The notes beneath the pieces are model-generated. The model saw only the letters and a list, made by a program, of their open reading frames with translations, was not told the origin of the DNA and made no database searches. Of a DNA stretch of 22,778 bases, positions 17,058 through 22,778 are shown one piece after another (positions within the stretch are counted from its first letter, which is position 1; each line of letters starts with the position of its first letter). The translations under genes and the position numbers were made by a program. This DNA is from Candidatus Woesearchaeota archaeon. Lineage in GTDB: Archaea; Nanobdellota; Nanobdellia; Woesearchaeales; JAGVYF01. Location of the stretch: NCBI GenBank assembly GCA_023264635.1, contig JAHFLT010000006.1, forward strand, positions 33,730 to 56,507. Direction: 5' to 3'.

Positions 17058-17182
17058 CGCGCCTGATGGGATTCGAACCCACGACCTTCGACTTAGGAGG
17101 CCGACGCTCTCTTTGGCTTTCGTCTCTGTCTGATACGGTCCTTATACATAGACGCCAAGTATCCAAACTGAGCTACAGGCGC
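17058..17182 (-). tRNA. tRNA-Arg (anticodon CCU) with a ~50-nt intron in the D-loop (non-canonical position, about 20/21-21/22)
   Basis: Hand-folded from the minus strand. The acceptor stem is GCGCCUG/CAGGCGC with discriminator G. The 5' D-stem strand GCUC and D-loop AGUUUGGAUA are followed by about 50 nt (about 17110-17159, CUUGGCGUCU...AGACGAAAGCCAAAGA), and then the 3' D-stem strand GAGC. The anticodon arm is UCGGC-CUCCUAA-GUCGA, the variable loop is AGGUC, and the T-arm is GUGGG-UUCGAAU-CCCAU. CCA is not encoded. A TATA-like cttttaagg is centred about 28 nt upstream. Confidence 0.85.
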
Positions 17183-17255: not shown

Positions 17256-18431
17256 ATGAAAAACATGGAAGGATTATACGAACCCGGAGAAGATACGTTT
17301 TTGCTTGCGTCAGTGCTGCCAAACTATCGGCTAGGAAGAGTACTGGAAATAGGAACAGGAACCGGCTACATTACAGCTGCTGCTGCAAAGAAAGCAAAGC
17401 ATATACTGGCTGTTGATGTTGATTCAAAAGCAGTAAAATACTGCAGAGAACATCACAAACTGGACCACGTCACTTTCCGGCAAAGTGATCTTTTTTCTCG
17501 TGTTAGTGGGAGGTATGACACCATCATCTTTAATCCACCATATCTCCCTTATGATAAACGGGAACCGAAACAGTCACAGCTTGTAACTATGGGAGGAAAA
17601 CATGGTTACGAACTGCTGACGAAGTTCATCGCTAAAAGTCCGTCATTTCTTACAGCGCATGGCCGGATTCTGATTGTTTTCAGCTCGTTGACAAATAAAC
17701 AGAAGGTAGATGAAGCGATTATAAGTACTATGCTTGAAAAAAAGCAAGTGGTATCAAGGAAAATACCCTTTGAGGAGCTGTTTGTTTACTGCATCAGAAA
17801 AAGTAGCTTGCGGCAGCAGCTCGAGAAAGGAGGAATGAAAGAGCTTTTCTTTTTTGCCAAAGGCAAAAGGGGATTTGTATTTACTGGTCTATTGAGAAAA
17901 AAAAAGGTAGCTGTCAAAGTGCATAATCCGCAATCGCCGGTACTCAATGCATTGGCACGTGAAGCTAGGATGCTTCGATTTGCGAATCGTTTGGGAATTG
18001 GTCCACGTCTAATAGCAAGCGGAAGAGAGTATGTCATCTATCAGTTTGTTGAGGGTGAGCAGATAAGTTCCAAGGTGGCATCATTATCCAGAAACCAATT
18101 GCGATTGCTGATAAAACGAATAGGAAAACAATTATTTGTGCTGGATAAAGCTGGTATAGCGAAAGAAGAGATGAGTAATCCCTATAAGCACATTATTATT
18201 ACTTCACAATTAAAACCAGTGCTCATTGATTTCGAGAGGGCGCGTAAGACAAAAACACCGCACAATGTTACTCAGTTTTGTAGTTATCTCCTGCATTTGC
18301 AAGCGCAGGTAAAGAAAAGAGGAATACATTTCTCAAGAAAAGATGTCATTGACTGGGCTAAGCATTATGCTCTCTTATCGCCTTCAAAAAGAGAGCAACA
18401 TCTTAATAAACTAATGCACATTCTTTTCTGA
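17256..18431 (+). CDS. Fusion protein: HemK/Mtq2-type N5-glutamine (NPPY) methyltransferase domain plus a Bud32/RIO-like small kinase domain
   Basis: The N-terminal domain shows YEPGEDTFLL, motif I VLEIGTGTGYI and the catalytic IIFNPPYLP. The C-terminal domain (from about residue 195) shows AKGKRGFVFTG...VAVKV (P-loop plus Lys), REARML, VEGE, GIAKEEMSNPYKHIII where HGDLTTSN would sit, and LIDFERA (DFG-like). There is no stop codon between the two halves. An alternative start is ATG 17265. Confidence 0.75.
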   Translation: MKNMEGLYEPGEDTFLLASVLPNYRLGRVLEIGTGTGYITAAAAKKAKHILAVDVDSKAVKYCREHHKLDHVTFRQSDLFSRVSGRYDTIIFNPPYLPYDKREPKQSQLVTMGGKHGYELLTKFIAKSPSFLTAHGRILIVFSSLTNKQKVDEAIISTMLEKKQVVSRKIPFEELFVYCIRKSSLRQQLEKGGMKELFFFAKGKRGFVFTGLLRKKKVAVKVHNPQSPVLNALAREARMLRFANRLGIGPRLIASGREYVIYQFVEGEQISSKVASLSRNQLRLLIKRIGKQLFVLDKAGIAKEEMSNPYKHIIITSQLKPVLIDFERARKTKTPHNVTQFCSYLLHLQAQVKKRGIHFSRKDVIDWAKHYALLSPSKREQHLNKLMHILF

Positions 18432-18433
18432 AC

Positions 18434-18994
18434 ATGGAAGACTCTACAAAGCAGCGTCTGGCAGCATTCAGGAAGCAACTAGTGGATGAACTAATTAAGC
18501 AAGTGGCTTGTGACGTCAAACAAGACAATGAGGTTACCGAGAAAAAATATCATATGTATACTGTGGAATACGTTGCGAAGATGATTGAAACAGACAATGA
18601 TCATGCATTTGTAACAGAGCTCTTTAAGGAAATGATACGGGTGTATGCTGATAATGAAACGTACTGCGCTCGCATGTTTGACGCGTATAAGAAGCAGCCA
18701 GCTTTAACAGAGCATTTGTCTGATATGGAAACTTACTACGTCACAGCAAAGAAAGAATTTCCAGTCTATTCTCCGGCATATCTTGCTTACAATGCGCTGG
18801 TTGATGCATACAATGTCGGCTTGGAAAAAGAGATACTGTATTCTAAAATAAGTAATACTCTCTATCAGCTGAAAGACGCACGTGACAAGCTAACGCTGGT
18901 GGATTACAGAGAAGAATTCTCCGGGAATATCACCAAGCTACAGCAGATATATCTGGAACATTATCAACTGCCCGACAGTAAGAAATGCAACTAG
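18434..18994 (+). CDS. Hypothetical protein (186 aa, apparently helical, Tyr-rich)
   Basis: The ORF starts 2 nt after the upstream stop. I recognise no domain. Confidence 0.6.
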   Translation: MEDSTKQRLAAFRKQLVDELIKQVACDVKQDNEVTEKKYHMYTVEYVAKMIETDNDHAFVTELFKEMIRVYADNETYCARMFDAYKKQPALTEHLSDMETYYVTAKKEFPVYSPAYLAYNALVDAYNVGLEKEILYSKISNTLYQLKDARDKLTLVDYREEFSGNITKLQQIYLEHYQLPDSKKCN

Positions 18995-18999
18995 GCTAC

Positions 19000-19491
19000 A
19001 TGCGAAGAATTTATTATGATCAACTGGCTGCAGGATATGATGAATTATATGGTGATGAGCAGCTGCAAAAACAAAATCTCATTCAGCATACCCTTCTTTC
19101 TTTCCTCTCTGCAAATAGTACCATACTAGATGTCGGTTGCGGCACAGGCATATCGCTTGCTCACAATGCGTTTGGAATTGATCCAAGCTTTCAACTGCTG
19201 CTCAGGGCAAAAAAAAAGAGCCATTATCTTATACACGGTGTTGGAGAGGCATTGCCCTTCAAGGATACTTCATTTGATGTCGTGCAATGTGTTACTGCGT
19301 TGCATAATTTCACGGATTGGAAAAAAGGGATAGGTGAGATGAAACGGGTCTCAAAACAATTGATTGTACTCTCTCTATTGAAAAAAGCTGATGCTTTTCA
19401 TGAGATGCGAAAGATGATTGAGCAACACCTCTGCGTTGTAGAGACCAAAGATGCTCATCAAGATATCATTTTTTTCTGCAGGAAGAAGTAA
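19000..19491 (+). CDS. Small class I SAM-dependent methyltransferase (Methyltransf_11-like)
   Basis: Motif I is ILDVGCGTGISL. The post-I and later motifs are GIDPS, LPFKDTSFDVVQCVTALHNF and MKRVSKQLIV. The track start at 18985 overlaps the upstream gene by 10 nt. The in-frame ATG at 19000 (MRRIYYDQ...) leaves a 5-nt gap. Either start is possible. Confidence 0.75.
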   Translation: MRRIYYDQLAAGYDELYGDEQLQKQNLIQHTLLSFLSANSTILDVGCGTGISLAHNAFGIDPSFQLLLRAKKKSHYLIHGVGEALPFKDTSFDVVQCVTALHNFTDWKKGIGEMKRVSKQLIVLSLLKKADAFHEMRKMIEQHLCVVETKDAHQDIIFFCRKK

Positions 19492-19515: not shown

Positions 19516-20073
19516 ATGGCACAATGGAATGGTGATATTTCTGTCTCATATCTGTCGTATGCGGCAAGATTATCCTTAAAAAGCTATCTTGCTTACGAAT
19601 ATATGTGTCACAAAGCTGTCACAGGTGGAAGAATGTCATGTAATGGTCTCAATCTCTTATGTGGAATCGAGGGAAGTGGAGGGAATGGGCGTTGTTACAT
19701 CGGTAGGGAAACTCCCATCTCTTACGAAACCAGTGGTGGGCTTTATCTTACTGCGGAGAGGGATACCTATGAACCAGCCATTGAAATAACAAGGCCTTTG
19801 TACGCCTCTTCCAAGCACAGCGATGTTGAATTCTGGAAGCCACTCCTATTCTATGGACCGGTTCAAAGAGACACTCCATCTGCTAAGGAATTTGGATTTT
19901 CGTATCATCCGACATTAGATTTGGCACTGACGTATCTTGGCATTCCACAAAAATCACTATCTCCCCTAAAAACATCACCCATTAAATCATTACCTATCTT
20001 TGAAAAAGAACGCCAGCAGTTAGAAGAGCTTATTGCGCAGGAAAAGCGCAGGATGGTGCAGCGTGCAGCTTGA
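19516..20073 (+). CDS. Hypothetical protein (185 aa) with a Gly/Cys-containing N-terminal half and a Pro-rich segment plus amphipathic helix at the C-terminus
   Basis: The ORF ends 4 nt before the AAA+ gene start. The tail reads LGIPQKSLSPLKTSPIKSLPIFEKERQQLEELIAQEKRRMVQRAA. I recognise no domain. Confidence 0.6.
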   Translation: MAQWNGDISVSYLSYAARLSLKSYLAYEYMCHKAVTGGRMSCNGLNLLCGIEGSGGNGRCYIGRETPISYETSGGLYLTAERDTYEPAIEITRPLYASSKHSDVEFWKPLLFYGPVQRDTPSAKEFGFSYHPTLDLALTYLGIPQKSLSPLKTSPIKSLPIFEKERQQLEELIAQEKRRMVQRAA

Positions 20074-20077
20074 TATC

Positions 20078-21190
20078 ATGGTACGGAAAGCTGAAGAACA
20101 TGAACTTTTTGCTGAAGAAGTAGCTGATAGTGAAGAGAGGAAAACGCTTTTTCTTGAAGCGGCAGAAATTTATGTCAACGTTTCGAAGATATGCTCATCA
20201 CATCAAGTAGCTCACTATGTGCAACGCGCAAAAGAATGCTACCTCAAATCGCAGCAAAAAAAAACTGTAATCTCCCCTATAATAATAGAGACAAAGATAA
20301 TAGAGACAAAGAAAGTGTCTTTTGATGATGTAGTCGGCTTAGAGAATGTGAAAGAAAAGATACGTCTGAAAATCATTGAGCCATTTAAGCATCCTGAACT
20401 GTATACGTACTTTGGAAAAAAAATAGGAGGAGGGATACTCATGTATGGCCCTCCTGGCTGTGGTAAGACGCTGCTTGCGGAAGCTGCTGCACATGAGGCG
20501 GGATGCGCTTTCTTTTCTGTGAGCGTTGGCAGCATCACCAGCAAATACGTTGGTGAGACGGAGAAGAACATCACTGAGCTTTTTACGCAAGCAAGAGAGG
20601 CTGCGCCAAGCATTATCTTCTTTGATGAACTGGAAGCGCTTGGGAGCGAGCGGAGCAATGCAACAGAATATGCGCGAACTGCAGTGAGTCAACTGCTGAC
20701 TGAGATGAACGGCCTCGGAAACAGAGAACAGCACATTTTGTTGATAGGGGCAACCAATGAGCCATGGAACGTTGATATTGCACTTCGCAGGCCGGGCAGA
20801 TTTGGTGACCACCTTTTTATTCCACCGCTTGATTTCAAGGCTCGGTACAAGTTGCTGAAGCAATATCTTAAAAATAGACCGCTTGCAGGTGATGTGAATT
20901 TAATAGCAATAGCCATTGAGACACAGCACTATTCCGGAGCAGATATCGTAGCACTTTGCGATGATGCTATCGAGCATGCATTGACAGACTCGCTAAAGGT
21001 GAAAGCAGCGCGCAACGTGACAATGGATGACTTCATCAATGCATTAGCACAGAAACATGCAAAGTCCACAATTCAATGGTTCAAGATGGCAATCAAAGAA
21101 CTGGAAAAGAATAAGGATGAAAGCTTTCAGGAGGTGGTGATAGAAGGAAGGAAAGTGCTTTCTGCTGCATTGCGGGAGGTTGTGGCATGA
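20078..21190 (+). CDS. AAA+ ATPase (single AAA domain) with an N-terminal MIT-like three-helix region; Vps4/CdvC-like or Cdc48-related
   Basis: Walker A is GPPGCGKT and Walker B is IIFFDELE. The second region of homology is GATNEPWNVDIALRRPGRF. The N-terminal ~70 aa (EERKTLFLEAAEIYVNVSKICSSHQVAHYVQRAKECYLKSQQ) resemble a MIT domain by eye. The track start at 20033 would overlap the upstream gene, so I prefer the in-frame ATG at 20078. Confidence 0.85.
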   Translation: MVRKAEEHELFAEEVADSEERKTLFLEAAEIYVNVSKICSSHQVAHYVQRAKECYLKSQQKKTVISPIIIETKIIETKKVSFDDVVGLENVKEKIRLKIIEPFKHPELYTYFGKKIGGGILMYGPPGCGKTLLAEAAAHEAGCAFFSVSVGSITSKYVGETEKNITELFTQAREAAPSIIFFDELEALGSERSNATEYARTAVSQLLTEMNGLGNREQHILLIGATNEPWNVDIALRRPGRFGDHLFIPPLDFKARYKLLKQYLKNRPLAGDVNLIAIAIETQHYSGADIVALCDDAIEHALTDSLKVKAARNVTMDDFINALAQKHAKSTIQWFKMAIKELEKNKDESFQEVVIEGRKVLSAALREVVA

Positions 21191-22086
21191 TTAGTGTTAC
21201 CTATCTCATTAATGCGGGGTGCAATGAGCGCTGCCTTTTCTGCTTTAATCATTGGCGGGAGAACGGCCTTATGGATACGCTGCCTCATGACAAAAAAGAG
21301 TATATTGTGAAAAAAATATGTGACATGCGCCCAGAACATCTTGCATTCTCTGGAGGAGAACCGCTGATAGATAAGCATTTTGTTGCATTGCTGCAGTATA
21401 CACGCCAGCAGATGCCCAACCTTATACTGTCTGTGCAGACAAATGCGACGTTGCTTACTGAGGATATTACAAAAAAAATGAAAGCAGCTGGTGTTGCATA
21501 TATTCTGATTTCGCTGCATGGGCAGGAGAATGAACACAACGCACTAACTGGGGCAAAACTCTATACCAAAACAATCATGGGAATAAAAAACGCAATTGCT
21601 GCTCATATTCCCGTTGTGATAAACACTGTTGTTACAAGCCAAAATATTGCAGCTCTGCCACCTTTCCTTAAGGATGTTGGCAGTTTGGGTGTTTCTGCTG
21701 TTCAACTGTCTGCACTGTATGCAGCTGGCTCTGTCATCTCTAGAAAATATCTTTTTCCATCACCCGGTCAACAAAAGGAACTCGTCAGTGCTGTTACCAC
21801 TATGATATTACCGTATACTTTATCCTTTCATGCATTTGATAGGGAGATTGTTGCGCCATATTCTACCGATTCGTGTGGAGCGGGCGAGCAGGAGATCGCT
21901 GTTTTTCCCAATGGAGATGTCACGTTATGCCCAGCATGGGAGCAAAGCTATGGCAATCTGCTGCAAGATGACTGGACTGTGATCATCAAGAGAATTGAGC
22001 AGGGGTTGGTTGTGGAAAGTGAGCGTAAAACAGCATGCAATGACTGCGGCGGCTGCCTCTTGTCAAAGAAAGCTGCTGTTGCATAA
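21187..22086 (+). CDS. Radical SAM enzyme with a C-terminal SPASM/twitch-type auxiliary Cys cluster domain
   Basis: CNERCLFC (CX3CX2C) lies at residues 12-19, followed by SGGEPL. The C-terminus shows C-x12-G-x4-C (CGAGEQEIAVFPNGDVTLC) and then CNDCGGC. The start ATG overlaps the AAA+ stop (ATGA at 21187-21190). Confidence 0.8.
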   Translation: MISVTYLINAGCNERCLFCFNHWRENGLMDTLPHDKKEYIVKKICDMRPEHLAFSGGEPLIDKHFVALLQYTRQQMPNLILSVQTNATLLTEDITKKMKAAGVAYILISLHGQENEHNALTGAKLYTKTIMGIKNAIAAHIPVVINTVVTSQNIAALPPFLKDVGSLGVSAVQLSALYAAGSVISRKYLFPSPGQQKELVSAVTTMILPYTLSFHAFDREIVAPYSTDSCGAGEQEIAVFPNGDVTLCPAWEQSYGNLLQDDWTVIIKRIEQGLVVESERKTACNDCGGCLLSKKAAVA

Positions 22087-22115: not shown

Positions 22116-22778
22116 TCACACACGCCATGTAACAGCAACATCATCAGTACGCCAATATGGCATAATTTTCGATTTTTCAATGGGCGTTACACGTCCAGCT
22201 TTATGTTCAATAGTGCCGAGCCACGCAATCATCGCACCATTATCGACGAGGAACTCATTTGCAGGGACAAAGCACTTTGCATGTCGCTCTTCACACATCT
22301 TCTTAGCCATTTCCTGTAATCGTGTATTGCATGCTACACCACCACCTAACAAAAGCTCGTTTTTTTCCGTGTGTGCCATGGCACGCTCGCTCACTTCCAG
22401 CGCCATCGCAAAAACTGTTTCCTGCGCAGAATATGCAAGGTCTTCTTTTGTATACTTGCCCGAGTCGTACTTCTGTTTGAGATTCGTCAGTATACCCCCA
22501 AAGCTGAGGTCCATTCCCTTGACTACATACGGGATTTGTATGAGTTTCTTTCCGTTGCATGCAAGCGCATCTATCTTTGGACCACCGGGAAAACCAAGTC
22601 CCATGTGTCGAGCTAACTGGTCGAGGAAGTTTCCAATGCCTATGTCCAATGTTTCGCCGAAGATACGATATTTGCCGCTTTCAAATGCTATTATCTGTGT
22701 ATTTGCTCCGGATACGTAAAGTAACACAGGATCTTTTGCTTGTGTTTTTATCCGTCCGATTTCGAGGTGAGCAATGCA
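22116..22778 (-). CDS. kae1: Kae1 (tRNA N6-adenosine threonylcarbamoyltransferase, KEOPS catalytic subunit), C-terminal part; the 5' end is off the window
   Basis: The reading frame stays open to the right window edge (...CIAHLEIGRIKTQAKDPVLLYVSGANTQIIAFESGKYRIFGETLDIGIGNFLDQLARHMGLGFPGGPKIDALA...). This matches the conserved Kae1/TsaD core. It ends without a fused Bud32 domain. Confidence 0.88.
   Translation of the reverse strand, partial: CIAHLEIGRIKTQAKDPVLLYVSGANTQIIAFESGKYRIFGETLDIGIGNFLDQLARHMGLGFPGGPKIDALACNGKKLIQIPYVVKGMDLSFGGILTNLKQKYDSGKYTKEDLAYSAQETVFAMALEVSERAMAHTEKNELLLGGGVACNTRLQEMAKKMCEERHAKCFVPANEFLVDNGAMIAWLGTIEHKAGRVTPIEKSKIMPYWRTDDVAVTWRV

What the first reader, a model, noticed from the sequence alone, without database searches (positions are those of the whole stretch)
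19516..21190. MIT-like AAA+ ATPase preceded by an unknown protein whose C-terminal tail looks like a MIT-interacting motif
The AAA+ protein has a ~70-aa helical N-terminus resembling the MIT domain of Vps4/CdvC. Its second region of homology mixes a meiotic-clade feature (NEPW) with a classic-clade feature (RRPGRF). The gene 4 nt upstream is not an obvious ESCRT-III/Snf7 or CdvA homologue. It ends with a proline-rich stretch (IPQKSLSPLKTSPIKSLP) and then a charged amphipathic helix (FEKERQQLEELIAQEKRRMVQRAA). Pro-rich MIM2-type and helical MIM1-type peptides are how MIT domains recognise their clients. This could be a minimal unfoldase-client pair unrelated to canonical Cdv operons. It is also coupled by an ATGA overlap to a radical SAM gene, which canonical cdv loci are not.
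Basis: inference. Interest (0 to 1): 0.62.

Follow-up and report, generated by a model that had tools for sequence, protein, structure and literature searches.

The report
Orphan protein paired with AAA unfoldase
A small, fast-evolving protein and a single-ring AAA ATPase form a conserved gene pair in a minority of Woesearchaeota-type archaea; it is probably a client (or adaptor) and its dedicated unfoldase, it is not a Cdv/ESCRT division system, and its function is unknown.

Summary
The sequence features are real. A 185-aa ORF ends 4 nt before a 370-aa AAA ATPase, which overlaps a radical SAM/SPASM gene by ATGA. Homologues show the small protein (X) most likely starts at M40 (19633, 146 aa).

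The pairing holds. A full-length family profile finds this AAA in 18 of 401 genomes of the phylum (about 16 genera). Every locus inspected has a small same-strand ORF directly upstream, usually overlapping the ATPase start.

X diverges beyond recognition except for:
- an M-[S/T/V/A/C]-C N-terminus;
- a C-terminal helix motif L-x-x-h-I-x-x-E-[K/L].

The Pro-rich "MIM2" stretch is not conserved.

The ATPase N-domain is confidently predicted as a three-helix bundle. Its best whole-domain PDB match is the archaeal CdvC MIT domain (TM 0.60), but E is 1.7 and no sequence or profile method finds MIT.

The genome has three FtsZ genes and no ESCRT-III, PspA or Vps4_C. This is therefore not a Cdv system but a new AAA family, about equally distant from CDC48-D2 and Vps4.

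The radical SAM partner occurs in six of the carrier genomes and is absent from four others checked.

Best reading: X's tail docks on the N-domain and the ring threads X.

Another first-stage note (e1-3766137) records the same kind of pair in another genome.

The parts
19516..20073 (+). ORF of protein X as listed (185 aa)
   Evidence: It has no Pfam, NCBIfam or PADLOC hit.
19633..20073 (+). Probable true CDS of X (146 aa, starts MSCNG)
   Evidence: Homologues and gene calls begin at MSC. GGTGGA lies just upstream of the ATG.
19633..19641 (+). N-terminal M-S-C motif of X
   Evidence: The upstream protein starts M-[S/T/V/A/C]-C in the genomes compared. M-x-C occurs at 1.8% of background starts and M-[small]-C at 0.6%.
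19879..19941 (+). Genus-level conserved motif SAKEFGFSYHPTLDLALTYLG
   Evidence: Invariant columns A123, G127, F128, Y130, P132, L134, D135, L136, L138 and Y140 in alignment A1. The motif is not recognisable in distant lineages.
19942..19998 (+). Variable linker, Pro-rich in this genome (IPQKSLSPLKTSPIKSLPI)
   Evidence: The linker varies widely in length and composition. Prolines are absent in G001, L004 and L008.
19999..20052 (+). Conserved C-terminal helix motif of X (FEKERQQLEELIAQEKRR; core LEELIAQEK)
   Evidence: E165, L169, E170, A174, E176 and K177 are invariant in A1. The core motif occurs in 18 of 21 X tails against 1.6% of background ORF tails.
20078..21190 (+). AAA ATPase CDS (370 aa)
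   Evidence: The family is monophyletic.
20078..20257 (+). N-terminal three-helix domain (residues 1-60; helices 2-14, 18-38, 41-59)
   Evidence: AF2 model with pLDDT 87.8 and pTM 0.71. It is conserved across the family. The best whole-domain PDB match is the 2w2u CdvC MIT domain, TM 0.60, E 1.7.
20447..20470 (+). Walker A GPPGCGKT
   Evidence: Invariant in A2 and A6.
20543..20554 (+). Pore loop 1 K-Y-V-G
   Evidence: K156 and G159 are invariant; Y157 and V158 are nearly invariant.
20612..20629 (+). Walker B IIFFDE
   Evidence: D183 and E184 are invariant.
20753..20800 (+). Sensor 1 / second region of homology: TNEPW ... ALRRPGR
   Evidence: N227, P229, W230, R238, G240 and R241 are invariant in A6. 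Relative to VPS4B 'RR--RF' there is a two-residue PG insertion of the classic type.
20891..21034 (+). AAA lid domain
   Evidence: PF17862 at 272-319, E 7e-10.
21187..22086 (+). Radical SAM/SPASM gene (299 aa), ATGA-coupled to the ATPase
   Evidence: PF04055 scores 77.5 bits. SPASM scores 18.8 bits, below the 21.5 cut-off. Orthologues lie next to X-AAA in G001, G030, G363, G332 and G486.
21220..21243 (+). CX3CX2C cluster motif (C12, C16, C19)
   Evidence: Read from the sequence.

Best explanation
X (19633-20073) and the AAA ATPase (20078-21190) are a dedicated, co-translated pair found in a minority of Woesearchaeota-type DPANN archaea.

The ATPase:
- It is a single-ring, substrate-threading AAA protein with intact Walker A and B motifs, a KYVG pore loop and arginine fingers.
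- It belongs to a family of its own.
- It has a 60-residue three-helix N-domain that resembles MIT in topology.

X:
- It evolves fast, is tyrosine-enriched and matches no known fold family.
- It keeps only an M-small-C N-terminus and a C-terminal helix motif L-x-x-h-I-x-x-E-[K/L].

Proposed mechanism (inferred, not shown):
- The C-terminal helix of X docks on the ATPase N-domain. This is analogous to ESCRT-III MIM1 on Vps4 MIT, or to Pup on the Mpa coiled coil.
- The hexamer then threads and unfolds or disassembles X. Alternatively it acts on cargo that X brings.
- In this genome and five others a compact radical SAM/SPASM enzyme is coupled downstream. There X is probably also the protein that this enzyme modifies, with the ATPase presenting it.

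Shown: co-occurrence, gene coupling, the conserved motifs, the N-domain fold prediction, and the absence of ESCRT-III.
Inferred: the docking, the threading and the link to the radical SAM enzyme.
For: Gene pairing:
- Close orthologues and G001 keep X directly upstream of the ATPase, with a 4-nt gap or an overlap of 11-26 nt.
- The N-domain profile and the full-length profile find family members in 18 of 401 genomes of the phylum.
- Every inspected locus has a same-strand small ORF directly upstream. In most it abuts or overlaps the ATPase start.
- No other neighbour is shared by all loci.

X proteins:
- They are unalignable between lineages. The genus HMM reaches only the G363 protein, at E 0.006.
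- Nearly all still start M-[STAVC]-C, against 0.6-1.8% of background starts.
- 18 of 21 carry the C-terminal motif, against 1.6% of background ORF tails.

The ATPase:
- The N-domain model has pLDDT 87.8.
- The N-domain is conserved across the family, with A5, A12, L26, A28, Y32, S36, A51 and Y55 invariant.
- Its best whole-domain PDB match is a peptide-binding MIT domain.
- A free-standing copy of this domain lies between X and the ATPase in two genomes, so it behaves as an autonomous module.
- The catalytic and pore motifs are invariant.
- The family is monophyletic with 100/100 support.
Against: - No interaction was modelled or measured.
- The MIT resemblance is not statistically significant (Foldseek E 1.7), and no sequence or profile method supports it.
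- The helix is only moderately amphipathic. Its regex was derived from the data, so the enrichment figure is inflated.
- A charge-hydropathy estimate puts most X proteins near the order/disorder boundary, so 'disordered client' is not established.
- The conserved N-terminal cysteine is not explained by this model.
- X could be an adaptor or regulator rather than the substrate.
Confidence: 0.5

Rival explanations
1. Protein maturation module. X is the substrate of the radical SAM/SPASM enzyme, for example through a crosslink or modification at the conserved N-terminal cysteine or at the tyrosines. The AAA ATPase replaces the missing leader-recognition (RRE) domain: it binds the X tail and feeds unfolded X to the enzyme.
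For: - The radical SAM gene is ATGA-coupled to the ATPase here.
- It lies directly downstream in G001, G030, G363, G332 and G486.
- The enzyme is compact. Its CX3CX2C motif starts at residue 12, so there is no N-terminal RRE.
- It aligns over its full length to the peptide maturases PapB and MftC, and to StsB from position 97 onward.
- All five clear triad lineages have X starting exactly MSC. The sixth, G486, reads MEDCVSCGG.
- Two more distant homologues of the enzyme, in G373 and G308, sit in multi-radical-SAM or small Cys-rich-peptide contexts.
Against: - X-AAA occurs without any orthologue of this enzyme in G244, G066, G138 and G005. G244 and G066 are 98% complete.
- The M-x-C start is conserved in those genomes too.
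- X is 120-240 aa, long for a RiPP precursor.
- The SPASM score here is below Pfam's cut-off (18.8 against 21.5 bits).
- No modification chemistry can be inferred.
Confidence: 0.25
2. X is an adaptor or regulator rather than the client. It docks on the ATPase N-domain and uses its variable body to recruit or gate other substrates, like MecA, ClpS or SspB. Alternatively it acts as a degradation tag, like Pup.
For: - The architecture is a conserved docking motif plus a variable body.
- The pairing and co-translation suggest stoichiometric use.
Against: - X has no conserved globular substrate-binding domain and no Pup-like C-terminal GGQ/GGE.
- No ligase or depupylase-like gene is among the shared neighbours.
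Confidence: 0.15
3. A divergent Cdv/ESCRT system. The ATPase is a true CdvC/Vps4 orthologue and X is a degenerate ESCRT-III or CdvA.
For: - The AAA domain is 41% identical to human VPS4B and shares the TN-x-PW motif.
- The N-domain is a three-helix bundle with the 2w2u MIT domain as its best whole-domain match.
Against: - The CdvC equivalog scores 183 bits against a cut-off of 650, and the match covers only residues 59-329.
- There is no MIT or Vps4_C Pfam hit.
- There is no beta-domain insertion, and the arginine-finger region has the classic R-x-G-R form.
- Identity to the genome's own CDC48-D2 is equally 41%.
- The 96%-complete genome has no Snf7 or PspA and has three FtsZ genes.
- X matches no known protein family, including Snf7, and its composition does not suggest a helical-hairpin protein.
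Confidence: 0.03
4. X is not a real gene, or the adjacency is incidental within a translation-factor-modification operon (HemK2-Bud32 fusion, methyltransferases, Kae1).
For: - X has no database annotation and is an orphan in the word-index search.
- The neighbours in this genus are tRNA or translation-modification genes.
Against: - Protein-level conservation with in-frame indels is seen across 5-6 homologues.
- HMMER finds relatives at E down to 2.7e-19.
- The methyltransferase, Bud32 and Kae1 neighbours are not conserved outside the genus, whereas X-AAA is.
Confidence: 0.02

Closest known systems
Vps4/CdvC with ESCRT-III (MIT domain binding MIM1 or MIM2 tails)
   Same: - Single AAA ring with a small N-terminal three-helix bundle.
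- The partner protein carries a conserved C-terminal helix.
- The AAA domain is 41% identical to VPS4B and shares TN-x-PW.
   Different: - No detectable MIT or Vps4_C homology and no beta domain.
- The arginine-finger region has the classic R-x-G-R form.
- X is not an Snf7-fold protein.
- The genome has no ESCRT-III and divides with FtsZ.
- The Pro-rich MIM2-like stretch is not conserved.
- The helix motif fits MIM1 only at L0, I4 and K8.
CDC48/p97 D2 and its relatives AFG2/SPATA5 and NVL/Rix7
   Same: - Best profile and PDB sequence matches: TIGR01243 at 219 bits, and CDC48 D2 chains at E about 1e-116 (two-stretch scores).
- 41% identity to the genome's own CDC48-D2.
   Different: - One AAA domain rather than two.
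- No double-psi-barrel N-domain.
- The score is far below the family cut-off (219 against 803 bits).
- The genome has a separate bona fide CDC48 of 759 aa.
Mpa/ARC with Pup (Actinobacteria)
   Same: A small, poorly structured partner whose C-terminal part forms a helix on the ATPase's helical N-domain while the rest is threaded. This similarity rests on established knowledge of that system and is an analogy only.
   Different: - No homology.
- X lacks the C-terminal GGQ/GGE.
- No ligase gene is among the shared neighbours, and no proteasome genes were noted in the loci read.
RRE-dependent radical SAM/SPASM peptide maturases (PapB, MftC, StsB, PqqE)
   Same: The downstream enzyme has CX3CX2C plus a C-terminal Cys-rich SPASM-type region. 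It aligns end to end with PapB and MftC models.
   Different: - All scores are far below the family cut-offs.
- No RRE domain or PqqD-like partner is present.
- The candidate substrate is a 120-240 aa protein, and an AAA ATPase sits between the two genes.
IetA/IteA anti-phage AAA ATPase (Iet system)
   Same: It gives the best PADLOC hit (116 bits) and an NCBIfam IteA hit (106 bits) over the AAA domain.
   Different: - The score is far below the cut-off (106 against 510).
- No IetS-like protease neighbour is present.
- The similarity is generic to the AAA fold.

Membership tests
Vps4/CdvC | N-terminal MIT domain (Pfam PF04212) | tested here: not met
   - No hit at E <= 0.1 on the window protein.
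- No hit at E <= 10 on seven family N-domains.
- No hit in the own genome or at the ATPase loci of five other carrier genomes.
- The N-domain profile finds no MIT chain in the PDB.
- hhalign against the VPS4B MIT gives P = 0.068.
Vps4/CdvC | MIT-type three-helix fold | tested here: inconclusive
   - AF2 predicts a three-helix bundle with pLDDT 87.8.
- The best whole-domain Foldseek match is the 2w2u_B CdvC MIT domain: TM 0.60/0.61, rmsd 2.3 A, 23% identity, but E = 1.7.
- Most other top hits are partial matches to larger helical proteins.
Vps4/CdvC | Score over the CdvC equivalog cut-off (NF041006, 650 bits) | tested here: not met
   The score is 183 bits and covers residues 59-329 only.
Vps4/CdvC | Vps4_C helix (PF09336) and beta-domain insertion in the lid | tested here: not met
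   - PF09336 is not among the hits.
- The BLAST alignment to VPS4B ends at residue 298, and the remaining 72 residues leave no room for the ~50-aa insertion.
Vps4/CdvC | ESCRT-III (Snf7) partner encoded in the genome | tested here: not met
   - No Snf7 match in the 96%-complete genome.
- No PspA.
- Three FtsZ genes are present.
Classic AAA ATPase (PF00004 plus AAA_lid_3) | Walker A and B, sensor 1, arginine fingers, pore loop 1 and lid | tested here: met
   - PF00004 E 1.2e-41 and PF17862 E 7e-10.
- The motifs are invariant across 13 family members.
CDC48 family (TIGR01243) | Two tandem AAA domains, N-domain, and score over 803 bits | tested here: not met
   There is a single AAA domain and the score is 219 bits.
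PAN (proteasome-activating nucleotidase) | Coiled coil plus OB domain, and score over 500 bits | tested here: not met
   - The score is 205 bits over the AAA part only.
- The genome has its own PAN of 378 aa, 37% identical.
MIM1 motif | (D/E)xxLxxRLxxL(K/R) in a C-terminal helix | tested here: not met
   - The conserved core is L-x-x-h-I-x-x-E-[K/L].
- It matches the consensus at L0, position 4 (I) and position 8 (K), but not at R3 or L7.
- The consensus is quoted from my own knowledge.
MIM2 motif | Conserved proline-rich strand in the tail | tested here: not met
   The Pro-rich linker occurs only in the window protein and P0123, with different sequences. It is absent in G001, L004 and L008.
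Radical SAM / SPASM | CX3CX2C, PF04055 and PF13186 | tested here: inconclusive
   - PF04055 scores 77.5 bits, over the cut-off.
- SPASM scores 18.8 bits against a cut-off of 21.5 in the window protein.
- SPASM scores 28 bits in the G332 orthologue.

The most novel reading that the evidence does not exclude
An AAA unfoldase takes the place of the leader-recognition (RRE) domain in a radical SAM/SPASM maturation pathway. It binds a C-terminal 'follower' helix of a 120-240 aa tyrosine-rich protein and threads that protein into the enzyme. The enzyme then modifies it at the conserved N-terminal cysteine or at tyrosines. This would be a protein-scale, ATP-driven analogue of RiPP maturation in DPANN archaea.
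Probability: 0.15. Interest if true: 0.8.

Novelty: new variant of a known kind. Interest (0 to 1): 0.5.

Why it matters
- DPANN archaea have very small genomes, so a conserved and tightly coupled module of unknown function is worth explaining.
- The pair would be a compact model of how an AAA unfoldase recognises one dedicated partner through a short tail motif. That principle would here have arisen outside the ESCRT and proteasome systems, or have diverged from them beyond recognition.
- If the radical SAM link is real, it would be a new way of delivering a protein substrate to a radical SAM/SPASM enzyme.
- It also gives annotators a warning. A three-helix N-domain on a single-ring AAA protein is not enough to call CdvC/Vps4 in a genome that divides with FtsZ.

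Tried and rejected
- **Family searches for X.** Pfam, NCBIfam and PADLOC found nothing. The word-index homologue search returned only X itself.
- **Full-length ATPase model.** AF2 with a 6-sequence alignment gave a poor AAA domain (pLDDT about 40). Its Foldseek search returned only CDC48-type chains and said nothing about the N-domain.
- **N-domain profile against PDB sequences.** One chance hit only.
- **The search for related loci on genome contigs with the family alignment.** The patterns were too general and returned bacterial AAA loci (by my reading FtsH; not inspected) and no family member.
- **Building a diverse MIT profile from VPS4B residues 1-80.** Only vertebrate VPS4B was returned, so no useful profile resulted.
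- **PqqD/RRE reading of a 93-aa protein next to a radical SAM homologue in G308.** It looked PqqD-like by eye, but Pfam does not support this.
- **X as a clearly disordered protein.** The charge-hydropathy estimate is borderline.
- **Bacterial-type promoter and terminator scan.** Uninformative for an archaeon.
- **Literature.** No paper found describes this pair. A survey of archaeal Cdv systems reports Cdv proteins in three of the four archaeal superphyla and gives no DPANN case (PMC8970359).
- **Defence-system reading (IetA, pVip).** Rejected as generic AAA and radical SAM similarity.
Full report
**What is in the window**

The window lies in a 1.32-Mb, 96%-complete genome. A close orthologue of the ATPase is named by NCBI as coming from a Candidatus Woesearchaeota archaeon.

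On the + strand a tight gene row runs as follows:

| Coordinates | Gene |
|---|---|
| 17256-18431 | HemK2/Mtq2-type methyltransferase fused to a Bud32-like kinase domain |
| 18434-18994 | Unknown 186-aa protein |
| 18985-19491 | Class I methyltransferase |
| 19516-20073 | Protein X |
| 20078-21190 | AAA ATPase |
| 21187-22086 | Radical SAM/SPASM enzyme |

Kae1/TsaD is convergent at 22116 onward.

The TGA of X lies at 20071-20073, then TATC, then the ATPase ATG at 20078. The ATGA overlap lies at 21187-21190.

**Protein X is real but shorter than the ORF**

X has no Pfam, NCBIfam or PADLOC hit. It is an orphan in the word-index search.

A filter-free HMMER search of 1.84 billion representatives finds four true relatives, at E 2.7e-19 to 7.7e-7. 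A same-genus genome carries a 44%-identical copy.

The homologues, and most gene calls for them, start at MSC. The 39 codons upstream in the window ORF are not conserved. The likely start is therefore M40 at 19633, preceded by GGTGGA, giving 146 aa.

Within the genus four things are conserved:
- the start MSC[NG]..L.G..G.GG;
- a WKP;
- the block SA[KR]E[FL]GF[ST]Y.P.LDL.L[ST]Y;
- the C-terminal helix E[RQ]..LE.LIA.EK.

Between the block and the helix lies a linker that varies greatly in length. It is Pro-rich only in the window protein and in P0123, with unrelated sequences. It has no prolines in G001, L004 or L008. The helix passes it.

**The ATPase**

It has one AAA domain plus a lid. Walker A (GPPGCGKT), Walker B (IIFFDE), pore loop 1 (KYVG), sensor 1 and the arginine fingers are invariant in 13 family members. 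An active, substrate-threading ring is expected. This last step is an inference from established AAA mechanics.

It reaches no curated family cut-off:

| Model | Score (bits) | Cut-off (bits) |
|---|---|---|
| CDC48 | 219 | 803 |
| PAN | 205 | 500 |
| FtsH | 200 | 600 |
| CdvC | 183 | 650 |

The CdvC match covers residues 59-329 only.

The best matches among PDB sequences are CDC48/p97 D2, AFG2/SPATA5 and NVL/Rix7.

In a small tree the 12 family members form a 100/100 clade. It is separate from the genome's own PAN, CDC48 D1 and D2, two 485-500-aa AAA paralogues and human VPS4B.

Identity of the AAA domain:

| Compared with | Identity |
|---|---|
| Distant family members | about 50% |
| Own CDC48-D2 | 41% |
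| Human VPS4B | 41.5% |
| Own PAN | 37% |

TN-x-PW is shared with Vps4. R-R-x-G-R-F is the classic form, with a two-residue insertion relative to the RR--RF of Vps4. There is no room for a Vps4 beta domain and no Vps4_C hit. This is a distinct AAA family, not a CdvC orthologue.

**The N-domain**

AF2 on the first 75 residues, with five orthologues, gives pLDDT 87.8 and pTM 0.71. It predicts three helices at 2-14, 18-38 and 41-59. The same helices appear with pLDDT 77-90 in the otherwise poor full-length model.

Foldseek against the PDB finds nothing significant (best E 0.49). The best match that spans the whole domain on both sides is 2w2u_B, the Sulfolobus CdvC MIT domain solved with an ESCRT-III peptide. 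It gives TM 0.60/0.61, rmsd 2.3 A over 60 columns and 23% identity. MITD1 is weaker, at TM 0.50. Most other top hits are partial matches to much larger helical proteins such as 14-3-3.

Sequence methods give no MIT signal:
- no Pfam MIT hit on the window protein or on six distant family N-domains, only weak TPR and Sel1 traces;
- no MIT hit at the ATPase loci in six genomes;
- no MIT chain for the N-domain profile in the PDB;
- hhalign against the VPS4B MIT at P = 0.068.

Even true MIT domains are barely linked by sequence: VPS4B against archaeal CdvC gives E 0.006-0.6. Homology is therefore neither shown nor excluded. The defensible description is a three-helix bundle that is MIT-like in topology.

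**The pair is conserved well beyond the genus**

- The N-domain profile finds the family in 8 genomes of 401 sampled in the order, after false positives are removed.
- The full-length profile finds it in 18 of 401 genomes of the phylum. These span about 16 genera and include other orders of the same class. E-values run from 1e-113 to 1e-176. CDC48 scores near 1e-82.
- Every inspected locus that extends upstream has a small ORF of about 120-240 aa directly upstream on the same strand. Eleven of thirteen abut or overlap the ATPase start. The other two have intergenic gaps of 16 and 186 nt. In two further genomes a copy of the N-domain lies between X and the ATPase.
- No other neighbour is shared by all loci.

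Between lineages these upstream proteins cannot be aligned. The genus HMM reaches only the G363 protein, at E 0.006. They still share two features.

1. They start M-[S/T/V/A/C]-C: MSC, MVC, MTC, MAC or MCC. In G486 a possible GTG start gives VSC. M-x-C occurs at 1.8% of candidate starts in this genome, and M-small-C at 0.6%.
2. Eighteen of 21 carry L-x-x-h-I-x-x-E-[K/L] within the last 45 residues, against 1.6% of 1055 background ORF tails. The pattern was derived after seeing the data, so the contrast is overstated. The remaining three have near-variants.

They are also tyrosine-enriched: 4.6-7.5% against 3.7% in the proteome, with tyrosines spaced fairly evenly every ~7-20 residues. They have no hydrophobic segment long enough for a membrane span.

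A docking motif kept while the rest of the protein drifts is what is expected of a short linear motif that binds a conserved partner. The co-inherited and conserved N-domain is the obvious candidate. In G509 and G479 a free-standing 102-104-aa copy of the three-helix domain lies between X and the ATPase. The domain therefore behaves as an autonomous module.

**The radical SAM/SPASM gene**

Orthologues (E <= 1e-25, full length) occur in 7 of 401 genomes of the order.
- Five of them (G000, G001, G030, G363, G332) have the gene directly downstream of X-AAA, overlapping the ATPase stop. G486, found in the phylum search, adds a sixth.
- The other two (G373, G308) have it in multi-radical-SAM or small Cys-rich-peptide contexts.
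- G244 and G066 (98% complete) and G138 and G005 have X-AAA but no orthologue of the enzyme.

The core module is therefore X-AAA. The enzyme is an accessory that is either ancestral and repeatedly lost, or repeatedly recruited.

The enzyme is compact. Its CX3CX2C starts at residue 12, so it has no leader-recognition domain. It aligns end to end with the peptide maturases PapB and MftC, far below their cut-offs.

**Not a Cdv system**

The genome has no Snf7, MIT or PspA match and has three FtsZ/tubulin genes. It also has its own PAN and CDC48. A survey of archaeal Cdv systems reports Cdv proteins in three of the four archaeal superphyla and gives no DPANN case. That survey required a MIT or Vps4_C region to accept a CdvC homologue (PMC8970359). 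Neither region is detected here.

**Most likely mechanism**

X and the ATPase are made together. The C-terminal helix of X docks on the three-helix N-domain, and the ring threads X. This works like ESCRT-III with Vps4, or Pup with Mpa, without being a member of either system.

Where the radical SAM enzyme is present, X is its most plausible substrate. The ATPase would then supply the recognition and unfolding that an RRE domain supplies elsewhere.

The co-occurrence, the motifs and the fold prediction are shown. The docking, the threading and the enzyme's target are inferences. The conserved N-terminal cysteine remains unexplained. In several clades the ATPase or the free N-domain copy also begins with MC.

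**Limits**

- The tree lacks archaeal CdvC, katanin, spastin and FtsH references.
- Another first-stage note (e1-3766137) describes a 123-aa orphan with a C-terminal amphipathic helix overlapping a Vps4/CDC48-like ATPase in another genome. This matches the G001-type homologue seen here.

Noticed in passing
L131:630-938 (G509) and L135:2573-2887 (G479): A free-standing 102-104 aa copy of the ATPase's three-helix N-domain (starting MCNIKDAKRW... and MCSIKDAQRE...) is encoded between X and the ATPase in two genomes of one family.
   Followed up: partly
L012, L013, L131, L132, L135 (starts of the AAA genes): In several clades the ATPase itself begins with M-C (MCTEKDAE, MCNENEIF, MKMCDEKAV). In the same clades X begins MVC or MTC. 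An N-terminal cysteine thus recurs on both partners and is unexplained.
   Followed up: no
window 17256-18431: A single ORF fuses a HemK2/Mtq2-type methyltransferase (NF011529, 165.6 bits, over the cut-off) to a weak Bud32/APH-like kinase domain. The fusion recurs in G001, and a homologue of similar length lies about 6 kb from the ATPase in G066. Kae1 is encoded separately at 22116 onward.
   Followed up: partly
window 17058-17182: ARAGORN reports no tRNA anywhere in the window. Another first-stage note proposes an intron-bearing tRNA-Arg here.
   Followed up: no
G000:C30:29701-30120 and G000:C44:12685-13101 (L024, L025): Two paralogous 485- and 500-aa AAA proteins have long unknown N-terminal regions. 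They form their own long branch in the AAA tree.
   Followed up: no
G000:C37, C13, C43 (L030-L032): Three FtsZ/tubulin-family genes occur in a 1.3-Mb genome.
   Followed up: no
L045:63-2782 (G308): A radical SAM/SPASM homologue (30% identity) lies about 1 kb downstream of an 86-aa ORF containing CVCVCVC, with one ORF between them, and is followed by a 93-aa protein. It looks like a peptide-maturation cluster, but Pfam gives no PqqD hit on the 93-aa protein.
   Followed up: partly
window 18434-18994: An unknown 186-aa protein is conserved and syntenic in G001. It has no family hit and is not found near the ATPase in other lineages.
   Followed up: no
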